Shown: positions 2,122-61,989 of the stretch, piece after piece
Layout of the letters: each line of letters opens with the position of its first letter
Position numbering within the stretch: the first letter of the stretch is position 1
IMG/VR virus record: IMGVR_UViG_3300031999_000011
DNA: 64,000 nucleotides
Origin: a virus
Lineage: Duplodnaviria > Heunggongvirae > Uroviricota > Caudoviricetes
Strand: one strand, 5' to 3'
The notes under the pieces: model-generated
The model's database searches: none
Seen by the model: only the letters and a program-made list of their open reading frames with translations
What the model was told of the DNA's origin: nothing
Position numbers and translations under genes: made by a program

Positions 2122-2979
2122 ATGATAAATATCATAAAAGTAATTATTATGAAATTACATGATTTGCTACCTAAACAAAAGCCCTTCACATCAGCAGTTG
2201 TTAATTTATATTTAAAAGAATACGCGGTTGAGTTTGATATTAATACAATTATCTATGAAGGTGAGTATAAAACATACCCCCGTCAAGACTTAATAAAAAA
2301 AATAAAAAATGAATTGAAATTGACAGTATATCCAGATGAACATGATCCAAACAATATATTAGTACAATTTTTACCAAGATTTGTAAAAGTAATGCCAAAA
2401 TTATTACAACAAGTGCAGTTGTATGGTTGGTTTATTTCTGGAATTGAAACAGATACAGAACAAGAATATAAAGGATCTGATGAAGTAACAATTAACAATT
2501 TTTTACATTCAGGTTATAGAGAAGCTATAATAACACTTGAACCTAAATATAGTGATGAATTTAAAACTCCAAAATTGTTGTATCACGTAACTCCAATAAG
2601 TGTATGGGAAACAAAGATAAAACAATACGGGTTGTCACCAAAATCTAAATCAGTTCAATCATTTCATCTTGAACGAGTGTATGTAACTACAACAGCAGAT
2701 TTAGCAATTGAATTAATTAAACCACTCGCAAATGCTGGACTGAACAATGCATCTAATCAACATTATGATTCGGCAAAATTTAATCCTAAAGAATATTATA
2801 AAAAATGGGTAGTATTAGAAATTGATACTACTAAAATATCTAGTGTTGATGGATACTCTTATTTTAGAGTACATATTGATCACAACACTGATAGTTTTAA
2901 TCAGCATGTTAGTTTGTATACGCAAAATTATATTCCTCCTGTAGCTATTAGAATAATCAAAACCATCAATGCTTATTAA
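2122..2979 (+). CDS. hypothetical protein; weak resemblance to KptA/Tpt1 RNA 2'-phosphotransferase core (LYHVT...GL.P...R.YV)
   Basis: 285-aa ORF; the H-x-T...GLSP segment resembles the Tpt1 HGT...GL.PM motif, otherwise unrecognised. Confidence 0.5.
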   Translation: MINIIKVIIMKLHDLLPKQKPFTSAVVNLYLKEYAVEFDINTIIYEGEYKTYPRQDLIKKIKNELKLTVYPDEHDPNNILVQFLPRFVKVMPKLLQQVQLYGWFISGIETDTEQEYKGSDEVTINNFLHSGYREAIITLEPKYSDEFKTPKLLYHVTPISVWETKIKQYGLSPKSKSVQSFHLERVYVTTTADLAIELIKPLANAGLNNASNQHYDSAKFNPKEYYKKWVVLEIDTTKISSVDGYSYFRVHIDHNTDSFNQHVSLYTQNYIPPVAIRIIKTINAY

Positions 2980-2993
2980 TAATTGATTTTTAT

Positions 2994-3203
2994 ATGTTAA
3001 AAACACTAGGTGAAAAAATGAGAATGATTAACATTGAAGAAGGATTAGGAGACGATATTCATTGTAGTAAATGTAATGGATATATTGATACTGGATTAGA
3101 ATGTACAGAATGTGGTCACGACATGCGCCCAGAAATTTATCCGGAAGATTATGTGTTAAATGCGTTAGTCTACAAAATATCGTATAATACGCATATCAAT
3201 TAA
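2994..3203 (+). CDS. small zinc-ribbon protein
   Basis: CSKCNGY...CTECGH four-Cys arrangement. Confidence 0.45.
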   Translation: MLKTLGEKMRMINIEEGLGDDIHCSKCNGYIDTGLECTECGHDMRPEIYPEDYVLNALVYKISYNTHIN

Positions 3204-3208
3204 GTGAG

Positions 3209-4387
3209 GTGGACTGTATGGAAGTCTTTATCTGTGGTGGTGCTGTTCGTGACGTAATCATGGGTCACGAACCAAAAGACATTGATTTTGTGGTCGTAGG
3301 TTCAACTCCTGCAGAAATGATTGCAAATGGTTTTAAACAAGTAGGTGTAGATTTTCCTGTGTTTTTGCATCCTAAGACTGGTGAAGAGTGGGCACTCGCA
3401 AGAACAGAGAGGAAAATCTCAGTTGGTTATAACGGTTTTACATGTGAGACAACTGATGTCACGTTGATACAAGACTTGTCACGCAGAGATTTATCTTGCA
3501 ACTCAATGGCTGTTAGAATCGAAGATTGGGCAGAATTCAAAAACACTAAAAGTGCGCATTTGGTTATAGATCCATTTTGGGGTCAAGCTGATATACATTG
3601 TGGTATATTGATTCATACCAGCGAAGCTTTTTCAGAAGACCCAATTCGGGTACTTCGTGTATCTCGCTTCGCTGCGAGGTACAACTTTGCTGTTGCACCT
3701 GAAACAATGCAGTTGATGTCTGATATCGTACATGAACTTGATCATGTACCAACAGAACGAATCTGGATGGAGTTTGAAAAAGGCTTGATGGAAGATCATT
3801 CACATAGGATGATTGAGGTCTTGCATGAAGTTGGTGCATTTCACGTTAAAGTCATGCAACCATTTAATCGTGCTCCTGATATGTGGCAACGTCCAAGTAG
3901 ATCTGATGTTTTGAAAAAAGCTGTTCATATTAAACATTTGCCATCCAGATTTGCTTTGATTGGTACAGGGTTTACAAAAGATGAATTTAAAACACACCGT
4001 ATTCCAAATGACTGTGCTGATATAAGTTTAATTATTAACAAACACGTTGAACGTTTGGCATTTTTTCATGTTTTTAATAAAGCTCAAAGATTGAATATTA
4101 TAATGGAATTGAGGGCAATACAACGACCTGTTGCATTTTTAAATCAGGTGTTTGATGTAGTAGATATATTGTTTGATGTGGATTGTACCATACATCGTGA
4201 TAAATTTTTTCAAGATATTAAAGATATTTCAAGAGTTGATGCTGCAGTTGTTGCTGAAAAAGCTAAAAAAGCATTTAACCCAAATGATATTTGGAGCTTA
4301 GGTACAACAATACAGAATGCAATCTTTAATGCAAGATTGGACATGATGGATGTTGATAAGCGTAATTGGGTAGTATCTGGTCAGTAA
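3209..4387 (+). CDS. cca: tRNA nucleotidyltransferase (CCA-adding enzyme) / poly(A) polymerase family
   Basis: N-terminal FICGGAVRDVIMG...KDIDFVV (GGxVRD...DxD class II nucleotidyltransferase head), RRD, ~390 aa. Confidence 0.85.
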   Translation: MDCMEVFICGGAVRDVIMGHEPKDIDFVVVGSTPAEMIANGFKQVGVDFPVFLHPKTGEEWALARTERKISVGYNGFTCETTDVTLIQDLSRRDLSCNSMAVRIEDWAEFKNTKSAHLVIDPFWGQADIHCGILIHTSEAFSEDPIRVLRVSRFAARYNFAVAPETMQLMSDIVHELDHVPTERIWMEFEKGLMEDHSHRMIEVLHEVGAFHVKVMQPFNRAPDMWQRPSRSDVLKKAVHIKHLPSRFALIGTGFTKDEFKTHRIPNDCADISLIINKHVERLAFFHVFNKAQRLNIIMELRAIQRPVAFLNQVFDVVDILFDVDCTIHRDKFFQDIKDISRVDAAVVAEKAKKAFNPNDIWSLGTTIQNAIFNARLDMMDVDKRNWVVSGQ

Positions 4388-13035: not shown

Positions 13036-13110
13036 GACGTGTTGGTATAGTGGTTGTTGCCCTGGTCTGCAAAACCAGTGAGAAGGGTTCAATTCCCTTA
13101 CACGTCTCCA
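13036..13110 (+). tRNA. tRNA-Cys (GCA), encoded CCA
   Basis: Acceptor GACGTGT/ACACGTC; anticodon stem CTGGT/ACCAG with loop CTGCAAA; T-arm AAGGG-TTCAATT-CCCTT; 3' T-CCA. Confidence 0.8.
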
Positions 13111-18478: not shown

Positions 18479-18627
18479 GATTTAATTTGATTTTTACTTA
18501 AAATGGATATATAATATCTTTATGTTGTTAAACAGGAGGAGTTATATGGATATAACATAGATTTAACTAAAATACATTTTGTCTTTTAGTTAAATTACAT
18601 GTGTCGAATTTGTATAAATAAAGAATT

Positions 18628-18702
18628 GGTAGATGAGCTAGTTTGGAATAGCGTGCGCCTGAAGAGCGTGAGAATAAGGTTCGAATCCTTGATCTACCAC
18701 CA
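18628..18702 (+). tRNA. tRNA-Phe (GAA), encoded CCA
   Basis: Acceptor GGTAGAT/ATCTACC; D-arm GCTA-GTTTGGAA-TAGC; anticodon loop CTGAAGA; T-loop TTCGAAT; A-CCA. Confidence 0.8.
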
Positions 18703-18710
18703 GAATTAAT

Positions 18711-18786
18711 TGGGCTATAGTGTAATTGGAAACACCTCACACTTTGACTGTGATATTGTTCGGTTCGAGTCCGGCTAGCCCTACCA
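18711..18786 (+). tRNA. tRNA-Gln (TTG), encoded CCA
   Basis: U1 start as in bacterial tRNA-Gln; D-arm GTGT-AATTGGAA-ACAC; anticodon stem TCACA/TGTGA with loop CTTTGAC; T-loop TTCGAGT; 1:72 U-U mismatch. Confidence 0.7.
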
Positions 18787-18858
18787 CTTTTAAAAAGATA
18801 AATAAGTAGATACACTAAAAGTAGTGGTTAAAATATAATATACGTAGGAGATTGTATA

Positions 18859-19245
18859 ATGATAAAATTAATATTTATAGCACTATTATGTGTTTTTGTT
18901 ACAGGTTGTGCATCAATGAGCAATTGGACGCCAACAGTTGATACATATAACGATAGACGTGCATCTCATATCCCGCAAGATCAAGCAGAGTGCAGACAAT
19001 TAGCATCTCAAGCATCTGGTGGAACAGTTAAAGAAACCTTTACCGGTGCAGGTGTAGGAGCATTAATAGGTGCAGCAGGTGGAGCAATCGCTGGAGCGTT
19101 TATCGGAAATCCAGCAACTGGTGCAGCGATTGGTGCTGCTGCAGGTGGTTTTGGTGGTGGTGCTGGATTGGGCTTCAACGCCGAGAACAATTATAAACAA
19201 TCATACAAAGTTTGTATGAGACACAGAGGTCATACAGTAATTTAG
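18859..19245 (+). CDS. OsmB/SlyB-like glycine-zipper outer-membrane lipoprotein
   Basis: Lipobox FVTGCAS; GAGVGALIGAAGGAIAGAFIGNPATGAAIGAAAGGFGGG glycine zipper; paralog of 33194..33673. Confidence 0.65.
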   Translation: MIKLIFIALLCVFVTGCASMSNWTPTVDTYNDRRASHIPQDQAECRQLASQASGGTVKETFTGAGVGALIGAAGGAIAGAFIGNPATGAAIGAAAGGFGGGAGLGFNAENNYKQSYKVCMRHRGHTVI

Positions 19246-19258
19246 TATGAAAAATTAT

Positions 19259-19336
19259 GCGCTCGTAGCTCAATTGGATTAGAGCATAGGATTTCTAATC
19301 CTATGGTTGGAGATTCGAATTCTCTCGAGCGTGCCA
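19259..19336 (+). tRNA. tRNA-Arg (TCT), encoded CCA
   Basis: Acceptor GCGCTCG/CGAGCGT; anticodon stem TAGGA/TCCTA with loop TTTCTAA; T-arm GGAGA-TTCGAAT-TCTCT; G-CCA. Confidence 0.8.
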
Positions 19337-19353
19337 AACATTAAAAGAATTAT

Positions 19354-19431
19354 GTCCATGTAGCTCAATTGGATTAGAGCATCGGTCTACGAAACCGAAG
19401 GTTATCCGTTCAAATCGGATCATGGATACCA
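19354..19431 (+). tRNA. tRNA-Arg (ACG), encoded CCA
   Basis: Acceptor GTCCATG/CATGGAT; anticodon stem TCGGT/ACCGA with loop CTACGAA; T-arm ATCCG-TTCAAAT-CGGAT; A-CCA. Confidence 0.8.
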
Positions 19432-19472
19432 AATGGTAAAAAAATGATATATAATATATCTTAATGAATAAT

Positions 19473-19548
19473 GCAGGTGTAGCTCAATGGGTAGAGCGCC
19501 GTCCTTCCAAGTCGGATGTTGCAGAATCGTCCTCTGTCACCTGCTCCA
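19473..19548 (+). tRNA. tRNA-Gly (TCC), encoded CCA; atypical T-loop ATCGTCC
   Basis: Acceptor GCAGGTG/CACCTGC; anticodon loop CTTCCAA; one mismatch in the anticodon stem; A54/U58 instead of T54/A58. Confidence 0.65.
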
Positions 19549-19555
19549 ATTTTAT

Positions 19556-19631
19556 GCTTCGTTAGCTCAATGGGTAGAGCACTGCATTGTCACTGCAGAG
19601 GCAGCGGGATCATAGCCCGCACGAGGCGCCA
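19556..19631 (+). tRNA. tRNA-Asp (GTC), encoded CCA; atypical T-loop ATCATAG
   Basis: Acceptor GCTTCGT/ACGAGGC; anticodon stem CTGCA/TGCAG with loop TTGTCAC; T-stem GCGGG/CCCGC; G-CCA. Confidence 0.7.
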
Positions 19632-19663
19632 AATATAATGTAATTATATCAATTAAATGATTT

Positions 19664-19885
19664 ATGAAATTTCACAAACTTGAAGTATACGTTTTCGATT
19701 TTGAAGAAGGTGATAATATTAAAGATATTATCGTTGAAATTGAACAAAATCGACATTTTAATATGGAAGTTAAAGCTCATCAAACAGTTGATATTGGTGA
19801 ATGGGATGATGATCATGAATTAAATCTAACACGCACTTCATTAGAACAGTTTAGAGCGTATTTTGAAAAGAATAATGTCGGGTGA
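19664..19885 (+). CDS. hypothetical protein
   Basis: 73-aa ORF lying between tRNA genes. Confidence 0.4.
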   Translation: MKFHKLEVYVFDFEEGDNIKDIIVEIEQNRHFNMEVKAHQTVDIGEWDDDHELNLTRTSLEQFRAYFEKNNVG

Positions 19886-19922
19886 TACTCATGTGAATCC
19901 GTGAGTCTGGTTATAATTAAAT

Positions 19923-20000
19923 GGGCCTGTATCCCAATTGGTAAGAGGACACCGGCTTAGACCCGGTGTGTTGGAGATTCGAATTCTCTCAGGCCTACCA
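19923..20000 (+). tRNA. tRNA with anticodon TAG (Leu, reads CUA) but class-I short variable loop; encoded CCA
   Basis: Acceptor GGGCCTG/CAGGCCT; 3-bp D-stem; anticodon stem ACCGG/CCGGT with loop CTTAGAC; variable GTGTT; T-arm GGAGA-TTCGAAT-TCTCT; A73-CCA. Confidence 0.6.
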
Positions 20001-20017: not shown

Positions 20018-20200
20018 ATGACAAAAGCGTTAAATGATTCCATATTCGATAATTTAGCTATAGTAATTATTGCTGTTATAGTTGTTATGGTTTTACTTGG
20101 TATATTATTAAGTTTTGTATCTACTGTATTTAAATTCATTATACTTTGTATTATAGTTGGTGCTAGTTATAAATTATACAAATATTACAACACTAAGTAA
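20018..20200 (+). CDS. small membrane protein
   Basis: 60-aa ORF; hydrophobic IVIIAVIVVMVLLGILLSFV. Confidence 0.4.
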   Translation: MTKALNDSIFDNLAIVIIAVIVVMVLLGILLSFVSTVFKFIILCIIVGASYKLYKYYNTK

Positions 20201-20203
20201 TTT

Positions 20204-20620
20204 TTGCTTTTGATAATATTCCCTACCCAAATATATGAAAATTATATTTGGGTTTTTAGTTTAATGGAGTGTTGTATGGTTTTATTTCAACATGATACTG
20301 GATATACTAAAATTACTAAAAAGTATTTAAGATTGGCTGCTGTATATAGAAGATTTGCTGAACGTTCCCCACATTATGATTTTTCAATGAGAAGTTTAAT
20401 TGAATGTTTTAGACACGAAACATATGGTGATAAACATTCTCCGATGAATGGATATGTTCATGGAAAACACCTTAAAGATATTACCGTCTCTATGTGGATT
20501 GAAGATATAGATAAGTGTAATTTCTGCAAAGCTGAATTTTTAACTCCTTTAAATAAGTGGTGGGTCTCAAAAGCATTTGATACTATAATGCCACCTACAT
20601 GGTTTCCATTTCAAAAATAA
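20204..20620 (+). CDS. hypothetical protein
   Basis: 138-aa ORF. Confidence 0.45.
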   Translation: MLLIIFPTQIYENYIWVFSLMECCMVLFQHDTGYTKITKKYLRLAAVYRRFAERSPHYDFSMRSLIECFRHETYGDKHSPMNGYVHGKHLKDITVSMWIEDIDKCNFCKAEFLTPLNKWWVSKAFDTIMPPTWFPFQK

Positions 20621-21506: not shown

Positions 21507-21908
21507 ATGAAATTTTTAGGATTGTTAGTATTATTGTTAATTGTATCTGGTTGTGCAACTATAATTAGTGGTACTACAGATAATGTGTTAGTTAAAAGTA
21601 CTCCATCAGGAGTACCGTTTACTATACAAAATAAATCGGGTGTAACAGTAGTAGGTGGTGTAACACCAACAAAAGTTCAGCTGAAAAGAGGTGATGGATA
21701 TTTTAATGATGAAGTATATAAAGTAAATTATGTTATAAAAGGGTTTTACCCGCAAACAAGTGTTATTGCAGCATCAATAAATCCATGGTATTTTGGTAAT
21801 TTAATATTTGGTGGAATAATAATAGGCGGAATAATAATAGATCCGTTAACAGGTGCAATGTGGTCATTCCCAAGCGATACAAATATATTATTATTTCCAA
21901 TTCAATAA
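21507..21908 (+). CDS. lipoprotein with C-terminal glycine zipper (GGIIIGGIIIDP)
   Basis: Lipobox IVSGCAT; SD-like GGAGAG upstream. Confidence 0.55.
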   Translation: MKFLGLLVLLLIVSGCATIISGTTDNVLVKSTPSGVPFTIQNKSGVTVVGGVTPTKVQLKRGDGYFNDEVYKVNYVIKGFYPQTSVIAASINPWYFGNLIFGGIIIGGIIIDPLTGAMWSFPSDTNILLFPIQ

Positions 21909-22494: not shown

Positions 22495-23112
22495 GTGAGT
22501 AGTTCAAACAAAGATTGGTATTCAATAACTAATACATATTTAGATTGTCGACTCAATAGTATTTTTTTTCGTGTTAAAGAAAAATTTGGTGGATTATCAA
22601 ATATGTCGAACGATTTTCCAATTTGTGTTAATGGGTACAGTATAGCTAATAATGAGGCATTATATCAAGCATGTAGGTTTCCAGATTATCCTGAAATACA
22701 ACGAGAAATTATTATTCAACATAGTGGTATTGCAGCTAAAATGAAAAGCAAAAAATACCGGAAAGAGTTTACAAGAGTAGATTGGGATGATGTTCGAGTT
22801 GATATTATGCGTTTTTGTTTACAACTTAAACTTCAACAGTATGAAAAACCATTTGGTCTACTACTTATGAGTACTACTCAAACAGACATTGTTGAACGAT
22901 CAAGTAAAGATGCATTTTGGGGTGCTGTTTGGGACGATAACGCAGGCGCTTATGTTGGTCAAAACATACTAGGTAAGTTACTTATGGAGTTACGTGATTG
23001 GTTTTTTAATTGCGATATGAGTCTTAATGAACGTGGGTTATTTAGTTATAATTACATTGAACTGTTGAATGTTAACAATTTTTTGTTATTAGGAAATAAT
23101 ATAATTCTATGA
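22495..23112 (+). CDS. NADAR (YbiA-like, DUF1768) domain protein
   Basis: FGGLSNMSNDFPICVNGYSIANNEALYQACRF (LSNF...G..y.s.EH.yQa.KF) and DAFWGAV (D.yWG.G) NADAR signature motifs. Confidence 0.7.
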   Translation: MSSSNKDWYSITNTYLDCRLNSIFFRVKEKFGGLSNMSNDFPICVNGYSIANNEALYQACRFPDYPEIQREIIIQHSGIAAKMKSKKYRKEFTRVDWDDVRVDIMRFCLQLKLQQYEKPFGLLLMSTTQTDIVERSSKDAFWGAVWDDNAGAYVGQNILGKLLMELRDWFFNCDMSLNERGLFSYNYIELLNVNNFLLLGNNIIL

Positions 23113-34368: not shown

Positions 34369-34581
34369 ATGCAAGCACATAAAGTAACATGTCGTTTAAA
34401 GAATGGTAATATTAAAAAATATGAAGTTGATGGAGTTGACACTGCGCAAGCGGCAAGAGAATTTGTAATATCACAAGTTAAAAATATACGTACTGTGTTA
34501 GCTTTAGTTAATTCTCCAAGTATACATCCAGAACCATTGGAATTTGAACCAGAAGACCTACCACCTAAACGATATGCATAA
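34369..34581 (+). CDS. hypothetical protein
   Basis: 70-aa ORF; SD GGAGTGA upstream; its stop overlaps the next start (ATGCATAA). Confidence 0.4.
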   Translation: MQAHKVTCRLKNGNIKKYEVDGVDTAQAAREFVISQVKNIRTVLALVNSPSIHPEPLEFEPEDLPPKRYA

Positions 34582-35095
34582 TATTTTAAAGTTAACTTCG
34601 TCTGTGTTATATATGCCAATTGGACCGTCTGGTTGTGGTAAAAGCACATTATATCATAAGTTACGAGGTGTACAACGAGAATTACATAATTTATCAAAGG
34701 ATAGTATACGTTGTTTATTATACGGTGATGATTATGCTAAAGCTTGGATAGCTGCAAATAATGATAAAGATTTTGTAGCTAAAGTAAAAGTTATATATGA
34801 GAAAATGTTAGGTGAAAAAAGCAAAATATATTTAGATAACACTAACTTGTCTCCAAAAATTCGTAGGTATTGGTTGACAGAAGCAAGTAAATACAATTAT
34901 ACAAAAATTGCTATTGTATTTGATGTAGATGTAGATATATTATTATCTCGTCAAGTGACTCGTGAAGATAAAACAGTACCAAAAAGTGCTATTTACCAAC
35001 AAGTAGCAGCGCTTAAACAACCTGTTATTGGTGAGTTCGATGTTGTATATTCAATAATTGATGTAATTAGAGTATTAGAAAATGTTAACACATAA
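34574..35095 (+). CDS. P-loop nucleotide/polynucleotide kinase-like protein (AAA_33/zeta-toxin-like fold)
   Basis: Walker A GPSGCGKST near the N-terminus; DNTN (Walker-B-like). Confidence 0.6.
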   Translation: MHNILKLTSSVLYMPIGPSGCGKSTLYHKLRGVQRELHNLSKDSIRCLLYGDDYAKAWIAANNDKDFVAKVKVIYEKMLGEKSKIYLDNTNLSPKIRRYWLTEASKYNYTKIAIVFDVDVDILLSRQVTREDKTVPKSAIYQQVAALKQPVIGEFDVVYSIIDVIRVLENVNT

Positions 35096-35369
35096 TCTTA
35101 GAACATTTCCCCGTTCTCAACAAACTATTAGTACTATAAAAGATTTAGATGAACTTTTTGATAAGTGGATTGGGATACAAAAAGATGATTATATTGTTAG
35201 TATAGAAGAGATATTCTGTTATGTATCACTTGAATTCGCACAACAATATTATTTAAAACATTTAATGCGTGATAACATTCCTGAGAACAGGGAATATATG
35301 TTTAAACCTATAGAGCATATTCCTGGTATATATAAAGTAACCGCAATGTATATAAAGTGTACAGAATAA
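35082..35369 (+). CDS. hypothetical protein
   Basis: 95-aa ORF. Confidence 0.45.
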
Positions 35370-35719
35370 TTATTATGCTTATAACGAAATTAAAATCTAA
35401 GATACATAGGGTTACGGTAACAGACTCAAATTTGTCATATGAAGGATCTTGTGGAATTTCTATTGATTTATTGCAGCTTGCAAATATACAATCATATGAG
35501 CAAATTCATTTATATAATGTAAATAATGGAGAACGATTTACTACGTATGCAATAGAAGGTGAACCTAATATAATTTCAGTTAGAGGAGCTGCAGCTAGAA
35601 AAGCAGTTGTTGGTGATATATTAATTATATGTACGTATTGTCAAATATCAGAAGATAACGATTATCAACCAATTAATGTTTATGTAGACTCACAAAATAA
35701 TCCAATGTCTAATATATAA
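35357..35719 (+). CDS. panD: aspartate 1-decarboxylase (pyruvoyl-dependent), PanD
   Basis: [33 protein letters not shown]...[12 protein letters not shown]...[16 protein letters not shown] aligns with E. coli PanD (KLHRV.VT.ADL.YEGSC.ID, G-S cleavage site, NG.RF.TYAI). Confidence 0.85.
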
Positions 35720-35738
35720 TTTCAAGAGTACAATTATT

Positions 35739-36095
35739 ATGAATCTAAATATTAAATATGGATCTTCTGTAGCAGCATTAGTACTTACAGATGTTGTATG
35801 TGAACACACAAATAGTAATAAAATCAACCGTAAAGTTGCTCGCACATTAAATCAATTTAATATTCGTGCTAATTACATTGAAACCAGTTGTAACGATGTC
35901 GTTAAAAAACTTGAATCAACAATTGTATTTTATGAATTATTAGTAAAAGATTATATACATCGGTGTGATACAATTTTTCATAATGAAGCGGATATAAAAG
36001 TAAATTCTTTTATTAAAAATGTTATTAAAGCTAGATATAAAGCTTGGTTAGATAAAAACTTAAAAATACACAAACAATATACTAGAAGGAAGTAA
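35739..36095 (+). CDS. hypothetical protein
   Basis: 118-aa ORF. Confidence 0.45.
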   Translation: MNLNIKYGSSVAALVLTDVVCEHTNSNKINRKVARTLNQFNIRANYIETSCNDVVKKLESTIVFYELLVKDYIHRCDTIFHNEADIKVNSFIKNVIKARYKAWLDKNLKIHKQYTRRK

Positions 36096-36104
36096 TGTAA
36101 TTTT

Positions 36105-36467
36105 ATGAGCACCGATATACCGAGTGAAAAAAACATAACAGCATTTAATGGAATTTTTACAGCACGTCTTAATAAAATAATTAAAGATATAAAAAAAGTT
36201 CGACGTGATCCTACAAAAAAAGATAAACTAAAATCGTTGTTGCAGGAGGCTAAACATCTTAAACATAGTATAAAAACTTCTAATAAAAAACAACATTATA
36301 ATATATCAACTACATATGAAATTAATGAAGATGGTATGATATTGTTTGATACTGTTAATTTATTATCTAATAATGGTGTTAAAGTTGTTGATATATTTAC
36401 ATCTGTAAATAATACTTCAGATAATCATAAAACATTTACTATCAATTTTATCATTAAACAACAGTAG
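36105..36467 (+). CDS. hypothetical protein
   Basis: 120-aa ORF. Confidence 0.45.
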   Translation: MSTDIPSEKNITAFNGIFTARLNKIIKDIKKVRRDPTKKDKLKSLLQEAKHLKHSIKTSNKKQHYNISTTYEINEDGMILFDTVNLLSNNGVKVVDIFTSVNNTSDNHKTFTINFIIKQQ

Positions 36468-36583
36468 ATTTTTCTCCTAACTTATACTATACTATATTAT
36501 ACTATAATACATTATATGTATAATATATGTAGTAAATAATAACTAATTATAATAACTAATTTTATTAACCAGATAGGTTTAAT

Positions 36584-36802
36584 ATGCAAATTTTTACAAG
36601 AGATACACTTGACATAATAATAACGAAAATACTTAGTGTGATTTTCACATCGACCAGACGAGTAATATTTATATCGTTAGTGTTAACAGGTACGATGATA
36701 ATGTATTTTGGTTTTTGGACTTATATGGGAATAACAATTGTTGTATGTGCAATATTTATTATACTTATTTGGTGTGATGGTAAATTACACCCGGTTGATT
36801 AA
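36584..36802 (+). CDS. small membrane protein
   Basis: Two TM segments. Confidence 0.4.
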   Translation: MQIFTRDTLDIIITKILSVIFTSTRRVIFISLVLTGTMIMYFGFWTYMGITIVVCAIFIILIWCDGKLHPVD

Positions 36803-36805
36803 TAG

Positions 36806-37408
36806 GTGTTTTTTGTGAGTCGTACACTATATAACTTAGTTTTATTTACATCTGAATCTGGCAATTTAGCTAAGTTTGTGGGTAATCATTTTAAGTCAAA
36901 TAATCCAATCTATATATCTCCAGATGACGATCTTGAAGTGGTATTTCATCATTTGGTGCATCTTTCAATTCGACGTAGATTAATTGGAATCTCTGTTGGT
37001 TATACTAAATTAATACCAAAAAATATTATCGATTTGTTTGAAGGTCAATTATTTAACACTCACCCAGGTGAATTACCGTTAACACGTGGATTATATGGTA
37101 TTACAGCAATTCAAAAAATGATTACTTCGTATAAATCACTAGGAAGAATAACCATTCATCGAGTTGATGAACATTATGATACTGGTAGTGTAATTGCAAC
37201 CATTACATTTCCATATTTAACAGAGTTAGTTGATATGCAACTATTATATGAACTTTCAAATAATAATGATAGTCCCATACCTAAAGATTATTTATATGAA
37301 TGGACAGTAGATTACTCAAGAATGTTAAAATTGATTGAACCAACATTCGTTGTTAAATTTATTGATAATTGCTTTAAAACTAAATTAAAAAGTCATATTA
37401 AAAAATAA
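36806..37408 (+). CDS. formyltransferase (PurN/Fmt N-terminal catalytic domain family)
   Basis: LVLFTSESGNLAKF (compare PurN LISGNGSNLQAI), FNTHPGELPLTRG (N.HPSLLP..RG), ITIHRVDEHYDTGSVIA (GVTIH.VDE.LDTGPII); GTG start. Confidence 0.7.
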   Translation: MFFVSRTLYNLVLFTSESGNLAKFVGNHFKSNNPIYISPDDDLEVVFHHLVHLSIRRRLIGISVGYTKLIPKNIIDLFEGQLFNTHPGELPLTRGLYGITAIQKMITSYKSLGRITIHRVDEHYDTGSVIATITFPYLTELVDMQLLYELSNNNDSPIPKDYLYEWTVDYSRMLKLIEPTFVVKFIDNCFKTKLKSHIKK

Positions 37409-37479
37409 ATTAAATAAAATTTTAGTTGATCAATTGTGCCATTTAGTATAAACTCATATTTTCTTAAAGGAGTTTAAAT

Positions 37480-38547
37480 ATGATAGAAGAACATTATAAA
37501 AGTTATACTGGGATTAGTAGAGATCATAGTGCGTCTATGAAACATCTTACTAAGTATGCTGCAATTGATTACAATAATCAAATTCAAGAAATTAAAGCTA
37601 ATGCAGAGGGTATAGACACTATAGTTAGTGTTGTTAAATGTGGCGTTGGTAGACAGGGTATTGTTGAACGAATTATAACTAATTCAAATGTTAATGTATT
37701 AAAGGAAATTACCACATCTGATTATGATGCTGATGGTTGGTCAACTCCATTATTTGATAGTATTGGTACATTGATCGAATTATTTGAAGCCGCACCTGAT
37801 GCAAATGAGGATACTGTTGCGTTCTTAGTTATGGCTATTACTGATGGTGAAGAAAATAGCTCAGTTAAATGGAAGCATACATTATTTCAAAAAATCCAAC
37901 AATTACAAGCGACTGATAAATGGACTTTTGTATTTCGTGTACCTAAAGGTTATGCGAAATCATTAACAAAATTTGGTATACATCCAGGTAATATTCTCGA
38001 ATGGGATCAAACAGAAGCAGGTTTTGTAAAAGCAACACAAGAAACAAGTACTGCACTAAGTGGGTACTATAATAATTTAAGATCCGGGGTTAGATCAACT
38101 GACCGGTTCTTTACTAATATTGCTGATGTTAGTCCTGATGAAATCAAAAAGAAATTACATGATATCACAAATCAAGTTAGTTTTTGGGTCGTAAGTGATT
38201 CAGAAGCGGGTGTTCAAATTCGTGATTTTTGTGAGTCACACTTACACGGTCAAAAAATGTTAAAAGGGGCTGGGTTTTATCAATTAGTAAAACCAGAAAA
38301 AGATATTCAAGACTACAAACAAATTATCATTCGTGATAAGTCATCCGGGTTAGTTTATACTGGCGATGCAGTTCGTGATATGTTAGGTTTACCAAATTAC
38401 GGACATATTAAAGTATCACCGGGCGATCATGGTCAATGGGATATATACATACAATCGACATCTGTAAATCGTAAGTTACCAGCTGAGACTTCTGTGTTAT
38501 ATTATGCAAATATAGGGAAACCATATCATGAAGGTAAGTCCGCTTAA
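37480..38547 (+). CDS. von Willebrand factor type A (vWA) domain protein
   Basis: MIDAS-like DHSAS (DxSxS) near the N-terminus; ITDGEEN (TDGxxN); Rossmann-like alternating pattern. Confidence 0.65.
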   Translation: MIEEHYKSYTGISRDHSASMKHLTKYAAIDYNNQIQEIKANAEGIDTIVSVVKCGVGRQGIVERIITNSNVNVLKEITTSDYDADGWSTPLFDSIGTLIELFEAAPDANEDTVAFLVMAITDGEENSSVKWKHTLFQKIQQLQATDKWTFVFRVPKGYAKSLTKFGIHPGNILEWDQTEAGFVKATQETSTALSGYYNNLRSGVRSTDRFFTNIADVSPDEIKKKLHDITNQVSFWVVSDSEAGVQIRDFCESHLHGQKMLKGAGFYQLVKPEKDIQDYKQIIIRDKSSGLVYTGDAVRDMLGLPNYGHIKVSPGDHGQWDIYIQSTSVNRKLPAETSVLYYANIGKPYHEGKSA

Positions 38548-38755
38548 TTTAAAAAAATCAACGGATGTAAACAAGATGAGAGTCTATATAAGACTAGCGT
38601 TCTCATCATTATTAATTTTATTAGATATAGGATGGTTATTACCTATCTTAATATCTAGTAAATCTGGATGTTTAGTTATGTTAGGTTTTGTTTTAGTAAT
38701 TTTAACAATTCCATTTGCATATTATGCATATCGGTGGAGTGTTAAAACAGATTAA
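38528..38755 (+). CDS. small two-TM membrane protein
   Basis: Hydrophobic LLILLDIGWLLPILI and VMLGFVLVILTIPFAYYAY (alternative start ATG 38575). Confidence 0.4.
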   Translation: MKVSPLNLKKSTDVNKMRVYIRLAFSSLLILLDIGWLLPILISSKSGCLVMLGFVLVILTIPFAYYAYRWSVKTD

Positions 38756-38810
38756 TGGTAATTTAATTATGTATTAAAATAATTAAAATAAAAATAAGGA
38801 TAGTTTAAAT

Positions 38811-39716
38811 ATGAATAAGGATAATTTAAGTATGAATATGAATAGTTTTGTCGGTTGGTTTATTGCTGCTGTTGTATTAGTTGGTGGATTGATATTTTGG
38901 TCAAATTGGGAAAAAGTTCCCGCTGGGTATGTTGGTGTAAAGGTGCATTTACTTGGATCTGATAAAGGTGTTGATACAGAAGAATTAGGTACAGGTAGAT
39001 ATTATATTGGAATGAATGATGAGTTGTATACATTTCCAACGTTTTCTCAAAATCAAATATGGACATTAAGTAAAAATGAAGGTAGTCCAAATGATGATTC
39101 ATTAACTTTTCAATCTGTAGAGGGGTTGGAAATTAATACAGATATTGGTATTACTTATAACGTTAAAGCAGATCACGCTACTAAAATATTTCAGAAATAT
39201 AGAAAAGGTATAGATGAAATTACCTCATTGTATTTAAGGAATATGGTAAGAGACGCGTTAGTAACTACAGCTTCTACTATGTCAATTGCTGATATTTATG
39301 GTGCTAAAAAAGCTGATCTTATGGCTAATACTATTGCCTCTGTTAGAGATCAGACAAAAGATATTGGTATCAATATTGAAAAAATATATTGGATAGGTAA
39401 AATGCGACTACCTACATCTGTTGAAACTGCTATTAATGATAAAGTCAATGCATCACAAAAAACTGTTCAACGAGAAAACGAAGTAGCTCAAGCAAAAGCA
39501 GAAGCAAATAAAGTAATTGAAGCTGCAAGAGGTGAGGCGCAATCTAAATTATTAATTGCACAAGCAGAAGCTCAAGCAATTACAATTAAAGGAAAAGCAC
39601 TTAATGATAGCCCTAAAATTATTGAATTAAATGCTGTAGAAAAATGGAATGGTACATTACCAGTTTATACAATGGGTACATCGACTCCATTTATTAATCT
39701 TGGTGAGATTAAATAA
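38811..39716 (+). CDS. SPFH/band-7 (prohibitin/stomatin/HflK-like) membrane protein
   Basis: N-terminal TM; band-7 core; C-terminal Ala/Glu/Gln-rich helix EVAQAKAEANKVIEAARGEAQSKLLIAQAEAQAI typical of the family. Confidence 0.75.
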   Translation: MNKDNLSMNMNSFVGWFIAAVVLVGGLIFWSNWEKVPAGYVGVKVHLLGSDKGVDTEELGTGRYYIGMNDELYTFPTFSQNQIWTLSKNEGSPNDDSLTFQSVEGLEINTDIGITYNVKADHATKIFQKYRKGIDEITSLYLRNMVRDALVTTASTMSIADIYGAKKADLMANTIASVRDQTKDIGINIEKIYWIGKMRLPTSVETAINDKVNASQKTVQRENEVAQAKAEANKVIEAARGEAQSKLLIAQAEAQAITIKGKALNDSPKIIELNAVEKWNGTLPVYTMGTSTPFINLGEIK

Positions 39717-46482: not shown

Positions 46483-47430
46483 ATGTTAGATTTAATTATG
46501 CAAATTGTGATCGGTTATATCCGGTCTATTTCTGTTTCAAGTAACTTGATGATTGTAGTGATATTAATAGTATTTTCAATATTATTAGTATACGAAACAT
46601 TACATCCTAGAGAAAAATATCCAACAAAAAACTTATATCAATCATATAAAACAAATATTGGTATGTTTATTGTTAACACCATAATTTTGTCTGTATTATC
46701 TGCATCATCGTTACTATTATTAGTTGATGTACATTCATATAATGGAATATTTAACTTTATAACCAATAATAATGTTAAAATTATAGTGTCATTCTTATCA
46801 TTAGATTTATTGTTGTATTATTGGCATAGAATCTGTCATGAGTATGATAGGTTATGGATGTTTCATAGAGTACATCATAATGATTCATATTTAAACGTAT
46901 CAACTGCATTTCGTGTACACTTTATTGAATTATTTTTTACAAATGTATTAAAAGTAGTATTTGTAACAATAATAGGTATTAATGGGTTTATATTATTAAT
47001 ACATGAATTGATAACTATTTTATTTGTTATGGTTCATCACACTAATGTTAGTATTAAATATGAAAATATATTAAGTAAATTATTTATTGGGCCATCACTA
47101 CATCAAACACATCACTCTATGAATAGAGAGGAACATGATAGTAATTATGGTGCGATATTTTCTTTTTGGGATAGAGTGTTTGGAACATTATTAGAGACAA
47201 GTACAGTTAAAATTGGTATTAAAGGGTATTCTCCACAAAGTCTTATAAATTTAATAAGTTTTGGTTTTACTACCCCTGTTATACAACTGAAAAAACCTAC
47301 AATTGCAATAGAAGATATGATACGAGTGGCAGCGTATTATAGGGCAGAAAAACGTGGTTTTATTCACGGAAATGACCAATATGATTGGTTTATTGCAGAA
47401 CGTGATATTCATAATACAATAATTGTGTAG
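46483..47430 (+). CDS. fatty-acid hydroxylase superfamily (sterol desaturase / C4-methyl oxidase-like di-iron membrane oxygenase) fused to a C-terminal DUF2934-like motif
   Basis: His boxes HRICHE, HRVHHN, HHTNV, HQTHHS on a four-TM scaffold; C-terminal AAYYRAEKRGF.HG....DWFIAERD; strong SD AAGGAG. Confidence 0.75.
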   Translation: MLDLIMQIVIGYIRSISVSSNLMIVVILIVFSILLVYETLHPREKYPTKNLYQSYKTNIGMFIVNTIILSVLSASSLLLLVDVHSYNGIFNFITNNNVKIIVSFLSLDLLLYYWHRICHEYDRLWMFHRVHHNDSYLNVSTAFRVHFIELFFTNVLKVVFVTIIGINGFILLIHELITILFVMVHHTNVSIKYENILSKLFIGPSLHQTHHSMNREEHDSNYGAIFSFWDRVFGTLLETSTVKIGIKGYSPQSLINLISFGFTTPVIQLKKPTIAIEDMIRVAAYYRAEKRGFIHGNDQYDWFIAERDIHNTIIV

Positions 47431-61086: not shown

Positions 61087-61989
61087 ATGTCAGATATTAA
61101 TAAACATTTAGGGCAAGTTTCGCAATATAGTTCAACATATTCACCAGATATTTTAGTACGTGAGAGTCGGTTGTTGAATCGGGAGGCACACTATGTAGAT
61201 TCAGATTCGTTTGTTGGTTATGATGTGTGGAATTTATATGAAGTTTCAGCATTAACTGATAATGGACTACCAGTTGTAGGGTTCGGTAAACTAATATACT
61301 CTGCTTCTAGTAAGTATATTGTTGAATCAAAATCTTTGAAATTGTACTTTTTTAGTTACAATATGGAGAAACTGTGGAGAAATACTGATGATGTTATTGA
61401 TACGATGGAACGACAAGTAGTTATTGATTTGTCATCATTACTTGAAACACCTGTTCAATTTAAGTTCTTTCACGCAAATGATAATCATATACCATATGCT
61501 CCATTTCAACTAACAGAAGATAGCAAAATACCATGTAAATTTAAAAATATTGATAATATTGATGGTGTTGAAGATATTAAATTTGTCGATTTTAAAGAAA
61601 ATAAAGATTTGTTAAAAGTTGAATATAATGATAAATTATGTTATAATGCTATAACATCTTGTTTTTTAAGATCGAATTGTCGCATAACTCATCAACCAGA
61701 TTGGGGGGACATTTATGTTTATTATAGAGGTGATTATCAATTAGATGAATTATCTTTTATTAAGTACATTGTTAGTTTTAGAAATGAATTCCACTTTCAT
61801 GAAGAGGTTTGTGAAATGATATATGCTGTATTATATAACATACTACAACCTAAAGAATTACTCGTAGGTTGTTTGTATACTCGGCGAGGGGGTTTAGATA
61901 TAAATCCTATACGAGCAACTCATACTTTTTTATTAGATTCTGGATTAATTGATATTAACACTGTTGTACAAAAAACAACAAGACAATAA
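61087..61989 (+). CDS. queF: NADPH-dependent 7-cyano-7-deazaguanine (preQ0) reductase, bimodular YqcD-type QueF
   Basis: Colinear with E. coli QueF: GYDVWNLYEVS, VESKSLKLYFFSY (E(S/L)K(S/A)LK(L/Y)(Y/F) QueF motif), SNCRITHQPDWGDIYVYYRG (catalytic Cys in NC.ITHQPDW), YIVSFRNEFHFHEEVCE, YTRRGGLDINP. Confidence 0.9.
   Translation: MSDINKHLGQVSQYSSTYSPDILVRESRLLNREAHYVDSDSFVGYDVWNLYEVSALTDNGLPVVGFGKLIYSASSKYIVESKSLKLYFFSYNMEKLWRNTDDVIDTMERQVVIDLSSLLETPVQFKFFHANDNHIPYAPFQLTEDSKIPCKFKNIDNIDGVEDIKFVDFKENKDLLKVEYNDKLCYNAITSCFLRSNCRITHQPDWGDIYVYYRGDYQLDELSFIKYIVSFRNEFHFHEEVCEMIYAVLYNILQPKELLVGCLYTRRGGLDINPIRATHTFLLDSGLIDINTVVQKTTRQ

What the first reader, a model, noticed from the sequence alone, without database searches (positions are those of the whole stretch)
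18628..20000. tRNA array of 7 genes with non-canonical features, interrupted by a lipoprotein gene
Seven + strand tRNAs lie within 1.4 kb: Phe-GAA, Gln-UUG, Arg-UCU, Arg-ACG, Gly-UCC, Asp-GUC and a UAG-anticodon tRNA. All encode their 3' CCA. Three oddities stand out. First, Gly and Asp have A54/U58 instead of the universal T54/A58 in the T-loop. Second, the UAG (Leu, CUA-reading) tRNA has A73 but a short class-I variable loop and a 3-bp D-stem. Third, an OsmB-like lipoprotein gene and a 73-aa ORF sit inside the array. Decoders for rare AGA and CUA codons are included, suggesting codon-usage compensation or replacement of host tRNAs destroyed by defence nucleases.
Basis: seen in the sequence. 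Interest (0 to 1): 0.6.

Follow-up and report, generated by a model that had tools for sequence, protein, structure and literature searches.

The report
Phage tRNA gene cluster, atypical tRNAs
This is a genuine cluster of seven tRNA genes in an uncultured, AT-rich phage that probably infects methane-oxidising bacteria; its odd-looking tRNAs are forms that recur in many phage tRNA clusters, so the cluster is ordinary, though those forms seem little described.

Summary
ARAGORN and Rfam find all seven + strand tRNAs at 18628-20000 (47.9-66.1 bits; threshold 29). All encode CCA. Gly and Asp have A54/U58. The UAG tRNA has a 5-nt variable loop, a 3-bp D stem and A73. A glycine-zipper lipoprotein gene and a 73-aa ORF (phrog_3154) lie inside the array.

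A related uncultured phage (L133) has the same array. Its orthologous tRNAs differ by 2-11 compensatory stem changes each, so the genes are under selection.

The oddities are not idiosyncratic:
- Short-arm tRNA-Leu occurs in Cronobacter phage S13, Vibrio phage 1.081.O, Acinetobacter phage Bestia and more than 120 IMG/VR contigs. These carry the elements E. coli LeuRS needs: A73, A15-U48 and a 3-bp D stem.
- A54/U58 occurs in 33 of 1394 phage-array tRNAs, U54/U58 in none, and A54/U58 in 0 of 284 tRNAs from cellular genomes.

Two host-derived genes point to Methylococcales. Against that proxy host, codon compensation fits AGA, UGU and CGA but not CUA, and is not significant overall (p=0.44). The anti-nuclease idea remains untested.

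Verdict: an ordinary phage tRNA cluster carrying recurrent, phage-enriched tRNA variants that I could not find described in the literature.

The parts
18487..18517 (+). Promoter-like site (TTGATT-17-TATAAT) containing the first exact copy of GATATATAATAT, 110 nt upstream of tRNA-Phe
   Evidence: This is a consensus match only; function is inferred.
18628..18702 (+). tRNA-Phe (GAA), A73, CCA encoded
   Evidence: (48.0 bits). An ortholog in L133 differs by 5 compensatory stem changes.
18711..18786 (+). tRNA-Gln (UUG), U1.U72 mismatch, canonical T-loop, CCA encoded
   Evidence: (49.2 bits). The L133 ortholog has A54/U58 (AUCAUAC) instead.
18859..19245 (+). Glycine-zipper lipoprotein gene (128 aa, lipobox VTGC), apparently acquired from the host
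   Evidence: Pfam PF13436 30.3 bits. It is 60-70% identical to chromosomal Methylococcales proteins. It lies at the same position in the L133 array.
19259..19336 (+). tRNA-Arg (UCU), A20, G73, A53-U61, CCA encoded
   Evidence: (66.1 bits). Its T arm is identical to that of the UAG tRNA.
19354..19431 (+). tRNA-Arg (ACG), A20, A73, CCA encoded
   Evidence: (66.1 bits). It differs from the L133 ortholog by 11 compensatory changes.
19446..19457 (+). Second exact copy of GATATATAATAT, 16 nt upstream of tRNA-Gly; a possible internal promoter
   Evidence: These are the only two exact copies in the 64 kb window. Function is inferred.
19473..19548 (+). tRNA-Gly (UCC) with T-loop AUCGUCC (A54/U58), A53-U61, a U30.U40 mismatch, U73, CCA encoded
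   Evidence: (56.5 bits). The positional ortholog in L133 (anticodon ACC) keeps A54/U58 and differs by 8 compensatory stem changes.
19556..19631 (+). tRNA-Asp (GUC) with T-loop AUCAUAG (A54/U58, G60), G73, CCA encoded
   Evidence: (58.4 bits). The best anticodon-masked isotype model is Asp (33.8 bits). The L133 ortholog has the canonical UUCAAGU.
19664..19885 (+). 73-aa ORF of unknown function
   Evidence: phrog_3154, E=1.2e-10 over the full length. There are weak hits in two Synechococcus phages. It is absent from the L133 array.
19923..20000 (+). Short-arm (class I) tRNA-Leu (UAG): A73, A14, A15, U48, G18G19, 3-bp D stem with C13.A22, G1.U72, A53-U61, CCA encoded
   Evidence: (47.9 bits). 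With the anticodon masked it scores 32.9 bits on the short-Leu model and 22.6 bits on a model built from non-UAG short Leu, against 13.2 bits for the next isotype. The L133 ortholog is also short-armed and differs by 6 compensatory changes.
20018..20253 (+). 60-aa hydrophobic ORF (20018-20200) followed by a terminator-like hairpin (20225-20253); the probable end of the transcription unit
   Evidence: Consensus match only.
13036..13110 (+). Outlying eighth tRNA, Cys (GCA), CCA encoded
   Evidence: (54.4 bits).
3209..4387 (+). Phage-encoded tRNA nucleotidyltransferase (CCA-adding enzyme family); relevant context for tRNA 3'-end maintenance
   Evidence: Pfam PolyA_pol and PolyA_pol_RNAbd; phrog_2244, E=2e-88; phage homologs annotated as CCA tRNA nucleotidyltransferase.

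Best explanation
The locus is a functional, selectively maintained tRNA gene cluster. It belongs to an uncultured phage of about 30% GC whose host is probably a member of the Methylococcales.

How it most likely works:
- The genes appear to be transcribed from the + strand, from AT-rich promoter-like sites upstream of Phe and of Gly (inferred).
- Host RNase P and 3' nucleases would process the transcripts. No CCA addition is needed, because CCA is encoded. The phage's own CCA enzyme could repair damaged 3' ends (inferred).
- Host synthetases would charge the tRNAs (inferred).
- The tRNAs would then top up the host pool during infection.

The UAG tRNA is a short-variable-arm tRNA-Leu. It keeps the elements that bacterial LeuRS uses (A73, A15-U48, G18G19, A20a-type D loop, 3-bp D stem) and lacks only the long arm, which E. 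coli LeuRS does not need.

In Gly and Asp the U54.A58 reverse-Hoogsteen pair is swapped to A54.U58. This should keep the T-loop fold but removes the U54 substrate of TrmA.

Both forms recur in phage tRNA arrays and are not defects of this locus. The embedded lipoprotein gene is a host-derived moron carried within the array.
For: Shown:
- All seven tRNAs score well above the Rfam threshold.
- The array and its flanks are collinear with a second phage, L133, at 55-72% amino-acid identity.
- Orthologous tRNAs differ by 2-11 compensatory stem-pair changes with 0-2 disruptions each.

Short-arm Leu:
- 210 of 243 Leu tRNAs in 123 phage loci are short. These loci were selected for short UAG-Leu, but 52 CAA, 21 UAA and 10 GAG short forms came along unselected.
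- Cultured phages S13, 1.081.O and Bestia carry them; T5 and EniLVp02 do not.
- The set 3-bp D stem + A73 + A14 + A15 + U48 is present in 75% of unselected short Leu and in 0-8% of the other well-sampled isotypes.
- The window tRNA has all five features and scores best on the Leu models with its anticodon masked.
- The LeuRS identity rules come from PMC9976931.

A54/U58:
- Counts for positions 54/58 among 1394 phage-array tRNAs are UA 1328, AU 33, AA 27 and UU 0. Fisher p=2e-50 for the covariation.
- A54 goes with a purine at position 60.
- The pair flips by double substitution between the Gln and Asp orthologs of the two phages.
- It is absent from 284 tRNAs sampled from cellular genomes (p=0.004).

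Host: two genes of host origin point to Methylococcales.
Against: - There are no expression, processing, modification or charging data. Every step after the gene sequence is inferred.
- The window has unusual weak points: A53-U61 in three tRNAs, a U30.U40 mismatch in Gly, and G1.U72 in Leu.
- The Gly tRNA does not score best on the Gly model when its anticodon is masked.
- The phage samples were gathered with patterns that favour certain lineages. The cellular sample is small (284 tRNAs, 14 Leu) and is anchored on one D-arm type.
- The host is a proxy inferred from two genes.
- The window is only part of the genome, so the full tRNA set is unknown.
Confidence: 0.78

Rival explanations
1. Codon-usage compensation is the main reason for the array. 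An AT-rich phage in a host of about 41% GC supplies decoders for codons it overuses.
For: The phage uses AGA at 13.0 per 1000 codons against 7.7 in the proxy host, UGU at 12.9 against 4.9, CGA at 7.2 against 4.7, and GGA at 17.3 against 13.8. Four of the eight anticodons (UCU, UUG, UCC, UAG) pair with A-ending codons.
Against: - CUA is used half as often in the phage as in the proxy host.
- Covered codons are not enriched among phage-overused codons (p=0.44). They make up the same share of codons in phage and host (22.4% against 23.2%).
- The most overused codons (UAU, ACA, AUA, AAU, UCA) have no tRNA in the window.
- The host is only a proxy, and the rest of the phage genome has not been seen.
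Confidence: 0.3
2. The array is a counter-defence. The tRNAs replace host tRNAs cut by defence or toxin nucleases, and the structural variants (no long arm, A54/U58) make the phage copies poor substrates for host tRNA-targeting enzymes.
For: - Phage tRNAs rescue infection from PARIS, retron PtuAB and anticodon nucleases (PMC10264068, PMC11464382, PMC11555353).
- Both variant forms were found in phage arrays and not in the cellular sample.
- The phage also encodes a CCA-adding/repair enzyme and a NADAR protein next to the array.
- Human SLFN11 is reported to cleave type II (long-arm) tRNAs (cited in PMC13056530).
Against: - No nuclease is known that recognises the Leu long arm or U54/A58 in bacteria. 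The bacterial Schlafen studied so far cuts the anticodon arm.
- A54/U58 switches on and off between orthologs of two related phages. This looks more like near-neutral drift than a fixed adaptation.
- Nothing in the window tests this idea.
Confidence: 0.22
3. The odd features are tolerated, near-neutral variants. They accumulate because phage tRNAs are under relaxed constraint and AT mutation pressure. The tRNAs work, but the features have no function of their own.
For: - An A54/A58 intermediate is about as frequent as A54/U58 (27 against 33). U54/U58 is never seen. This suggests a drift path U.A to A.A to A.U.
- The state differs between orthologs.
- The 30% GC window phage also has A53-U61 in three tRNAs where L133 has G53-C61.
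- E. coli LeuRS does not need the long arm.
Against: - The strict covariation and the linked change at position 60 show selection on the alternative fold itself.
- Short-arm Leu dominates over long-arm Leu in many unrelated phage arrays. Drift alone would not be expected to produce this.
Confidence: 0.4
4. The UAG tRNA is not a Leu tRNA. It might derive from the neighbouring Arg-UCU gene, be charged with another amino acid, or be non-functional, which would recode or ignore CUA.
For: - Its 17-nt T arm is identical to that of Arg-UCU.
- ARAGORN names it from the anticodon alone.
- CUA is rare in the phage.
Against: - It lacks the Arg identity elements A20 and C35 (sequence).
- It carries the full Leu feature set and scores 32.9 and 22.6 bits on the Leu models against 13.2 bits or less on the others.
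- The L133 ortholog is conserved, with 6 compensatory changes.
Confidence: 0.05

Closest known systems
Phage T5 tRNA gene region (NC_005859, about 28-41 kb)
   Same: Same-strand tRNA genes lie in small groups separated by short ORFs and internal promoters. A lipoprotein gene sits next to a tRNA. CCA is encoded in the genes.
   Different: T5 has 23 or more tRNAs. All have canonical U54/A58 T-loops and its tRNA-Leu(UAG) is long-armed. There is no sequence relationship to this phage.
Array of the related uncultured phage on ENA ERZ27280210 k141_184624 (L133)
   Same: The gene order is collinear over about 12 kb. The tRNA set and order are Phe, Gln, lipoprotein, Arg, Arg, Gly, Asp, Leu(UAG). The Leu is short-armed. 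The Gly just upstream of Asp has A54/U58.
   Different: The order of the two Arg genes is swapped. There is an extra canonical Gly-UCC, and the A54/U58 Gly carries anticodon ACC. Gln, not Asp, has A54/U58. G53-C61 is kept throughout. The inserted small ORFs differ.
Short-arm tRNA-Leu genes of Cronobacter phage S13, Vibrio phage 1.081.O and Acinetobacter phage Bestia
   Same: They are 74-77 nt with a 4-5 nt variable loop, A73, A15/U48, a 3-bp D stem and an encoded CCA, and they lie inside tRNA arrays.
   Different: These phages carry two or three Leu isoacceptors (UAG, UAA, CAA); the window has only UAG. The window copy has one extra D-loop base, G1.U72 and A53-U61. The records annotate these genes simply as tRNA-Leu.
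A54.A58 / purine-60 T-loop of eukaryotic initiator tRNA and some tRNA-Ala (PMC7566577)
   Same: A54 replaces T54. U55, C56 and R57 are kept. Position 60 tends to be a purine: 73-88% A in phage A54 T-loops, and G60 in the window Asp.
   Different: Here position 58 is U, giving a swapped A.U pair rather than a purine-purine pair. The setting is phage elongator tRNAs, not eukaryotic ones. The window Gly has C60.
Animal mitochondrial tRNA-Leu, and minimal E. coli tRNA-Leu variants lacking the long arm (PMC9976931)
   Same: These tRNA-Leu species lack the long variable arm, with identity resting on A73 and D/T-loop tertiary elements.
   Different: They are organellar or engineered molecules. The window tRNA is a natural phage gene that would presumably use a bacterial LeuRS.

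Membership tests
Phage tRNA gene cluster | Several bona fide tRNA genes clustered on one strand of a phage genome | tested here: met
   Seven tRNAs lie in 1373 bp, all at or above 47.9 bits. Phage context is shown by endolysin, sigma-factor-like and phrog hits and by small same-strand ORFs.
Phage tRNA gene cluster | Conservation under purifying selection in related phages | tested here: met
   A syntenic array is present in L133. Orthologs differ by 2-11 compensatory changes with 0-2 disruptions each. Only one relative exists in the databases searched.
Phage tRNA gene cluster | Expression and aminoacylation during infection | not testable with these tools
   The phage is known only from metagenomes.
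Bacterial-type tRNA-Leu (LeuRS substrate) | Discriminator A73 | tested here: met
   A73 is present. 94% of 194 phage short-arm Leu tRNAs have it.
Bacterial-type tRNA-Leu (LeuRS substrate) | A15-U48 Levitt pair, G18G19, extra D-loop base (A20a), 3-bp D stem | tested here: met
   The D arm reads UCC-C-AAUUGGUAAG-A-GGA and the variable loop reads GUGUU. The combined feature set is specific to Leu anticodons among short tRNAs.
Bacterial-type tRNA-Leu (LeuRS substrate) | Long variable arm (class II architecture) | tested here: not met
   The variable region is 5 nt. The long arm defines the canonical structure but is not an E. coli LeuRS identity element (PMC9976931).
Bacterial-type tRNA-Leu (LeuRS substrate) | Leucylation by LeuRS | not testable with these tools
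   This needs an in vitro charging assay.
Amber suppressor tRNA | Anticodon CUA, pairing with the UAG stop codon | tested here: not met
   The anticodon is 5'-UAG-3' in the loop CUUAGAC. It reads CUA/CUG Leu codons.
Canonical elongator T-loop | U54.A58 reverse-Hoogsteen pair stacked on G53-C61 | tested here: not met
   Gly is A54/U58 on A53-U61. Asp is A54/U58 on G53-C61. U55, C56 and R57 are retained.
Initiator-like A54 T-loop (A54, A58, A60) | A54 together with A58 and A60 | tested here: not met
   A54 is present, but position 58 is U. Position 60 is C in Gly and G in Asp. The resemblance is partial.
Glycine-zipper outer-membrane lipoproteins (Pfam PF13436 / PF13441; SlyB/YcfJ/OsmB-like) | Signal peptide with a lipobox cysteine, and a Gly-zipper domain above the Pfam cut-off | tested here: met
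   The N-terminus reads MIKLIFIALLCVFVTGC. PF13436 scores 30.3 bits (cut-off 27). PF13441 (25.9, cut-off 28.9) and PF13488 (16.5, cut-off 25) fall below their cut-offs.
Anti-defence tRNA array (replacement of nuclease-cleaved host tRNAs) | The phage tRNAs resist a host nuclease that cleaves the host isoacceptors | not testable with these tools
   No host genome, nuclease or cleavage data are available. The idea is supported only by analogy.

The most novel reading that the evidence does not exclude
Phage tRNA arrays carry two recurrent body-structure variants that the sampled cellular genomes lack: a tRNA-Leu without the long variable arm, and an alternative T-loop (A54, A or U at 58, purine 60). 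On the most novel reading, these are adaptive. They would make phage tRNAs poor substrates for host enzymes that recognise the tRNA body, whether defence or toxin nucleases or modification enzymes such as TrmA, while the tRNAs remain chargeable. That would extend the known 'anticodon-loop escape' of phage tRNAs to the tRNA elbow and variable arm.
Probability: 0.15. Interest if true: 0.7.

Novelty: new member of a known kind. Interest (0 to 1): 0.38.

Why it matters
The array itself adds one more example of a well-known phage feature, here from a rare, uncultured lineage that probably infects methanotrophs.

The by-product is of more general use. Short-arm tRNA-Leu and the swapped A54.U58 T-loop pair are recurrent and appear phage-enriched. 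The A54.U58 form shows clean natural covariation: UA 1328, AU 33, AA 27 and UU 0. In the cultured-phage records examined, the short-arm Leu genes and the Bestia A54/U58 tRNA-Phe are annotated without comment. One A54/U58 tRNA-His (EniLVp02) is not annotated at all. I found no description of either form in the searchable literature.

The two forms give natural test cases for three questions:
- LeuRS recognition without the long arm.
- The tolerance of the T-loop fold.
- Whether phage tRNAs escape host enzymes through changes outside the anticodon loop.

Tried and rejected
- Close relatives in the cultured-phage collection. A blastn search with the array found only scattered single-tRNA matches.
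- IMG/VR search with the lipoprotein gave one locus without tRNAs. A search with the upstream 131-aa ORF gave nothing.
- The exact Asp T-arm pattern in IMG/VR gave four chance hits that are not tRNAs.
- A metagenome scan with the conserved 195-aa neighbour protein found nothing. A profile search of 5.8 billion proteins found only the window phage and L133, so ortholog covariation rests on two genomes.
- A metagenome scan with the Gly D-arm plus variable-region pattern was too general. It hit 119 loci with many isotypes and no third array relative, only one related Gly-UCC with A54/U58 (L302).
- The D-loop sequence CAAUUGGYAGAG as a Leu signature was rejected. It is common in 4-bp-stem tRNAs of other isotypes. 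A combined structural feature set replaced it.
- Extra RNAs in the gaps: none found at E<=1.
- Literature searches for A54/U58 or short-arm phage tRNA-Leu returned nothing relevant. This shows absence from that library only.
- Suppressor and Arg-derived identities for the UAG tRNA were rejected on sequence grounds.
- tblastn of the 73-aa ORF gave two weak cyanophage hits only.
Full report
**1. Observation**

ARAGORN finds eight tRNA genes in the window. The eighth is a Cys-GCA at 13036-13110.

Rfam's tRNA model matches all eight at 47.9-66.1 bits, against a gathering score of 29. The atypical Gly scores 56.5, Asp 58.4 and the UAG species 47.9.

Each gene is followed by a genomic CCA.

The T-loops read AUCGUCC in Gly and AUCAUAG in Asp. 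Both are A54/U58 with U55, C56 and R57 intact.

The UAG tRNA has these features:
- anticodon loop CUUAGAC, so it reads CUA/CUG and is not an amber suppressor
- A73
- a 5-nt variable region
- a 3-bp D stem with C13.A22
- G1.U72

- A53-U61 replaces the near-universal G53-C61 in Arg-UCU, Gly and the UAG tRNA.
- Gly has a U30.U40 mismatch.
- Gln has U1.U72.

No other RNA family matches in the gaps, even at E<=1.

**2. Protein genes inside the array**

ORF 18859-19245 has a lipobox (…FVTGC) and passes Pfam Gly-zipper_OmpA. It is 60-70% identical to proteins of Methylomicrobium, Crenothrix, Methylovulum and Methylococcales MAGs. In those bacteria the gene sits among housekeeping genes: the his operon, tatABC and ABC transporters. 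It is therefore best read as a host-derived moron.

The 73-aa ORF 19664-19885 matches phrog_3154 over its full length. This supports it as a real gene of unknown function.

A 12-nt motif, GATATATAATAT, occurs exactly twice in the 64 kb. One copy is upstream of Phe, within a TTGATT-17-TATAAT match. The other is 16 nt upstream of Gly. A terminator-like hairpin follows the 60-aa ORF after the last tRNA. These point to two or more transcription units, but that is inference only.

**3. Which phage and which host**

The window is about 30% GC. It is packed with small + strand ORFs. It encodes the following:
- an endolysin, a sigma-factor-like protein and a CCA-adding tRNA nucleotidyltransferase
- QueF
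- a NADAR protein
- a sterol-desaturase-family protein

It has no close relative among cultured phages. Identical proteins occur on JGI metagenome contigs.

The named homologs of the sterol desaturase are again from Methylococcales: Methylovulum, Methylobacter, Methylosarcina and Methylosoma. Two independent genes of apparent host origin thus point to Methylococcales as the host. This is an inference, not a demonstration.

**4. A related array shows selection**

One other uncultured phage, L133 (with L134 and L135 as copies), is collinear with window positions of about 15.0-27.5 kb at 55-72% protein identity. It carries the same array: Phe, Gln, ORFs plus lipoprotein, Arg-ACG, Arg-UCU, Gly-UCC, Gly-ACC, Asp, Leu-UAG.

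Across the acceptor, anticodon and T stems, orthologous tRNAs differ by 2-11 compensatory pair changes, with 0-2 disrupted pairs each. That is the signature of purifying selection on the cloverleaf.

The lineage is rare. A profile search of 5.8 billion proteins with a conserved neighbour found only these two phages.

**5. The UAG tRNA is a short-arm tRNA-Leu of a common phage type**

*Cultured phages.* Cronobacter phage S13, Vibrio phage 1.081.O and Acinetobacter phage Bestia each carry two or three tRNA-Leu genes of 74-77 nt with 4-5 nt variable loops, A73 and an encoded CCA. T5 and Vibrio phage EniLVp02 have long-arm Leu.

Besides the 122 selected UAG copies, ARAGORN found unselected short forms on those loci, including 52 CAA, 21 UAA and 10 GAG, against 33 long-arm Leu.

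*Shared features.* Among 194 unique short Leu, A73 is present in 94%, A15 in 97%, U48 in 98% and C13 in 89%. The D stem is 3 bp in about 90%. The combination 3-bp D stem + A73 + A14 + A15 + U48 is found in 75% of the unselected short Leu. It is found in 0-8% of the short tRNAs of the other well-sampled isotypes. The window tRNA has all five.

*Isotype scoring.* With its anticodon masked, the window tRNA scores 32.9 bits on the short-Leu profile. It scores 22.6 bits on a profile built only from non-UAG short Leu, and 13.2 bits or less on the other isotype models tested (the Val model could not be built).

*Literature.* These are the elements shown to matter for E. coli LeuRS: A73, A15-U48, G18G19 and A20a. 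The long arm and the anticodon are dispensable (PMC9976931).

*Cellular comparison.* In a sample of 117 loci from cellular genomes, all 14 Leu tRNAs were long-armed.

I therefore assign the tRNA to Leu. Charging itself remains untested.

**6. A54/U58 is a recurrent, covarying T-loop variant**

Counts for positions 54/58 among 1394 unique tRNAs from the phage loci were UA 1328, AU 33, AA 27 and UU 0. U58 occurs only with A54 (Fisher p=2e-50).

A54 loops keep U55, C56 and R57. They switch position 60 from pyrimidine (97%) to mostly A (73-88%). The same purine-60 association is described for the A54.A58 T-loops of eukaryotic initiator tRNA and some tRNA-Ala (PMC7566577).

The variant is concentrated in Asp, His and Ile-GAU. 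A second, metagenomic sample gave 11 AU in 468 unique tRNAs; 7 of the 11 copies lie in arrays of five or more tRNAs. None of 284 tRNAs from cellular genomes had A54 (p=2.5e-5 for A54 and 0.004 for AU).

Between the window phage and L133 the pair flips by double substitution in Gln and in Asp. It is retained in the Gly next to Asp.

Three points together suggest a path U.A to A.A to A.U under a constraint to keep a 54-58 pair:
- an A.A form is abundant
- U.U is never seen
- the pair flips between orthologs

Whether the swap has a function of its own is open. Loss of the TrmA substrate U54 follows from established knowledge of that enzyme. Any effect on nucleases is speculation.

**7. Why the array is there**

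Codon usage in 91 window ORFs shows:
- AGA is the commonest Arg codon (34%)
- CAA is 87% of Gln
- GGA is 30% of Gly
- CUA is only 6% of Leu
- AUA, at 42% of Ile, has no tRNA in the window

I compared this with 5947 codons from a Methylococcales chromosomal region of 41% GC. The phage overuses UGU, AGA, CGA and GGA but underuses CUA. Codons read by the eight tRNAs are not enriched among phage-overused codons (p=0.44). They cover the same fraction of codons in phage and host (22.4% against 23.2%).

Codon compensation is therefore partial at best. Two caveats apply: the host is a proxy, and only 64 kb of the phage is visible.

Replacement of host tRNAs destroyed by defence nucleases is well documented elsewhere. 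It would fit the phage's CCA enzyme and the neighbouring NADAR gene. Nothing here tests it.

My best reading is a general supplement to, and insurance for, the tRNA pool during infection. The specific driver is unresolved.

**8. Comparison and verdict**

In layout the locus resembles the T5 tRNA region: tRNA groups, small ORFs, internal promoters and a lipoprotein gene.

It is a new member of a known kind. The three 'non-canonical features' are real. They are also shared with many phage arrays already in the databases. There the short-arm Leu genes are labelled simply as tRNA-Leu. At least one A54/U58 tRNA, a tRNA-His in EniLVp02, is not annotated at all.

Six literature searches found no description of either variant. 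That shows absence only from the library searched.

Interest is modest for the locus itself. It is somewhat higher for the general pattern it led to.

Noticed in passing
window 13036-13110: An eighth tRNA (Cys-GCA, CCA encoded, 54.4 bits) lies 5.5 kb upstream of the array, just before a cupin/ARD-like ORF. UGU is the codon most overused by the phage relative to the proxy host.
   Followed up: partly
window 3209-4387: The phage encodes a tRNA nucleotidyltransferase (CCA-adding enzyme family; phrog_2244, E=2e-88), even though all eight of its tRNAs encode CCA. This suggests 3'-end repair rather than maturation.
   Followed up: partly
window 19306-19326 and 19970-19990; L133 10800-10877 and 11594-11670: The T arms of Arg-UCU and Leu-UAG are identical within the window phage (GGAGAUUCGAAUUCUCU). 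They are near-identical within L133 (GGGGG or GUGGG, then UUCGAAU, then CCCUC). They differ between the two phages. This looks like concerted evolution or gene conversion between two non-isoacceptor tRNA genes about 600 bp apart.
   Followed up: partly
window 19259-19336, 19473-19548, 19923-20000: Three of the eight tRNAs have A53-U61 instead of G53-C61. That state is found in only 8 of 1394 phage-array tRNAs and 2 of 284 cellular ones. The L133 orthologs have G53-C61.
   Followed up: partly
window 18711-18786; L133 9450-9524: tRNA-Gln has an unpaired U1.U72 in both phages. This is consistent with the known need of GlnRS to open the 1-72 pair. The discriminator differs: A in the window, U in L133.
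   Followed up: no
L133 11200-11275: The Gly tRNA orthologous to the window's A54/U58 Gly carries anticodon ACC (A34), which is unusual for bacterial-type tRNA-Gly. A related Gly-UCC with T-loop AUCGUGC sits alone on metagenome contig L302 (2069-2142).
   Followed up: partly
L007 6488-6563 (Vibrio phage EniLVp02, PP209424.1): ARAGORN finds a tRNA-His with an A54/U58 T-loop (AUCGUUA) that the GenBank record does not annotate. Standard pipelines may under-call this variant.
   Followed up: no
phage and metagenome loci L006-L128 and L269-L387: In A54 T-loops (both A.U and A.A), position 60 is A in 73-88% of cases, against a pyrimidine in 97% of canonical loops. This linked change mirrors the eukaryotic initiator tRNA T-loop.
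   Followed up: yes
L309 (Ga0315288_10001099): Several tRNAs in this array have T-loops beginning UGC or UGG (G at position 55 instead of U). This is a different departure from the T-loop consensus.
   Followed up: no
window 18506-18517 and 19446-19457: The only two exact copies of GATATATAATAT in the 64 kb both lie inside the array, each within a longer AAAATG..GATATATAATAT..CTT..ATG similarity. They are candidate phage promoters. With one mismatch allowed there are 13 sites against 5.7 expected.
   Followed up: partly
window 21507-21908, 22495-23112, 34544-39716, 46483-47430, 61087-61989: The window carries several auxiliary or possible counter-defence genes: a second lipoprotein (phrog_6823), NADAR, an AAA_33 kinase-like protein, PanD-like aspartate decarboxylase, a formyltransferase, a Band_7 protein, a sterol-desaturase-family protein with DUF2934 (best named hits in Methylococcales), and QueF.
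   Followed up: partly
L136 (Logan SRR8191145 contig) 2638-3027: A more distant relative carries a 69%-identical copy of the same glycine-zipper lipoprotein inside a different tRNA array (Ala, Thr, Val, Asn, Ile, Lys, Arg). The lipoprotein-in-array arrangement therefore recurs. Its Ile-GAU there also has A54/U58.
   Followed up: partly
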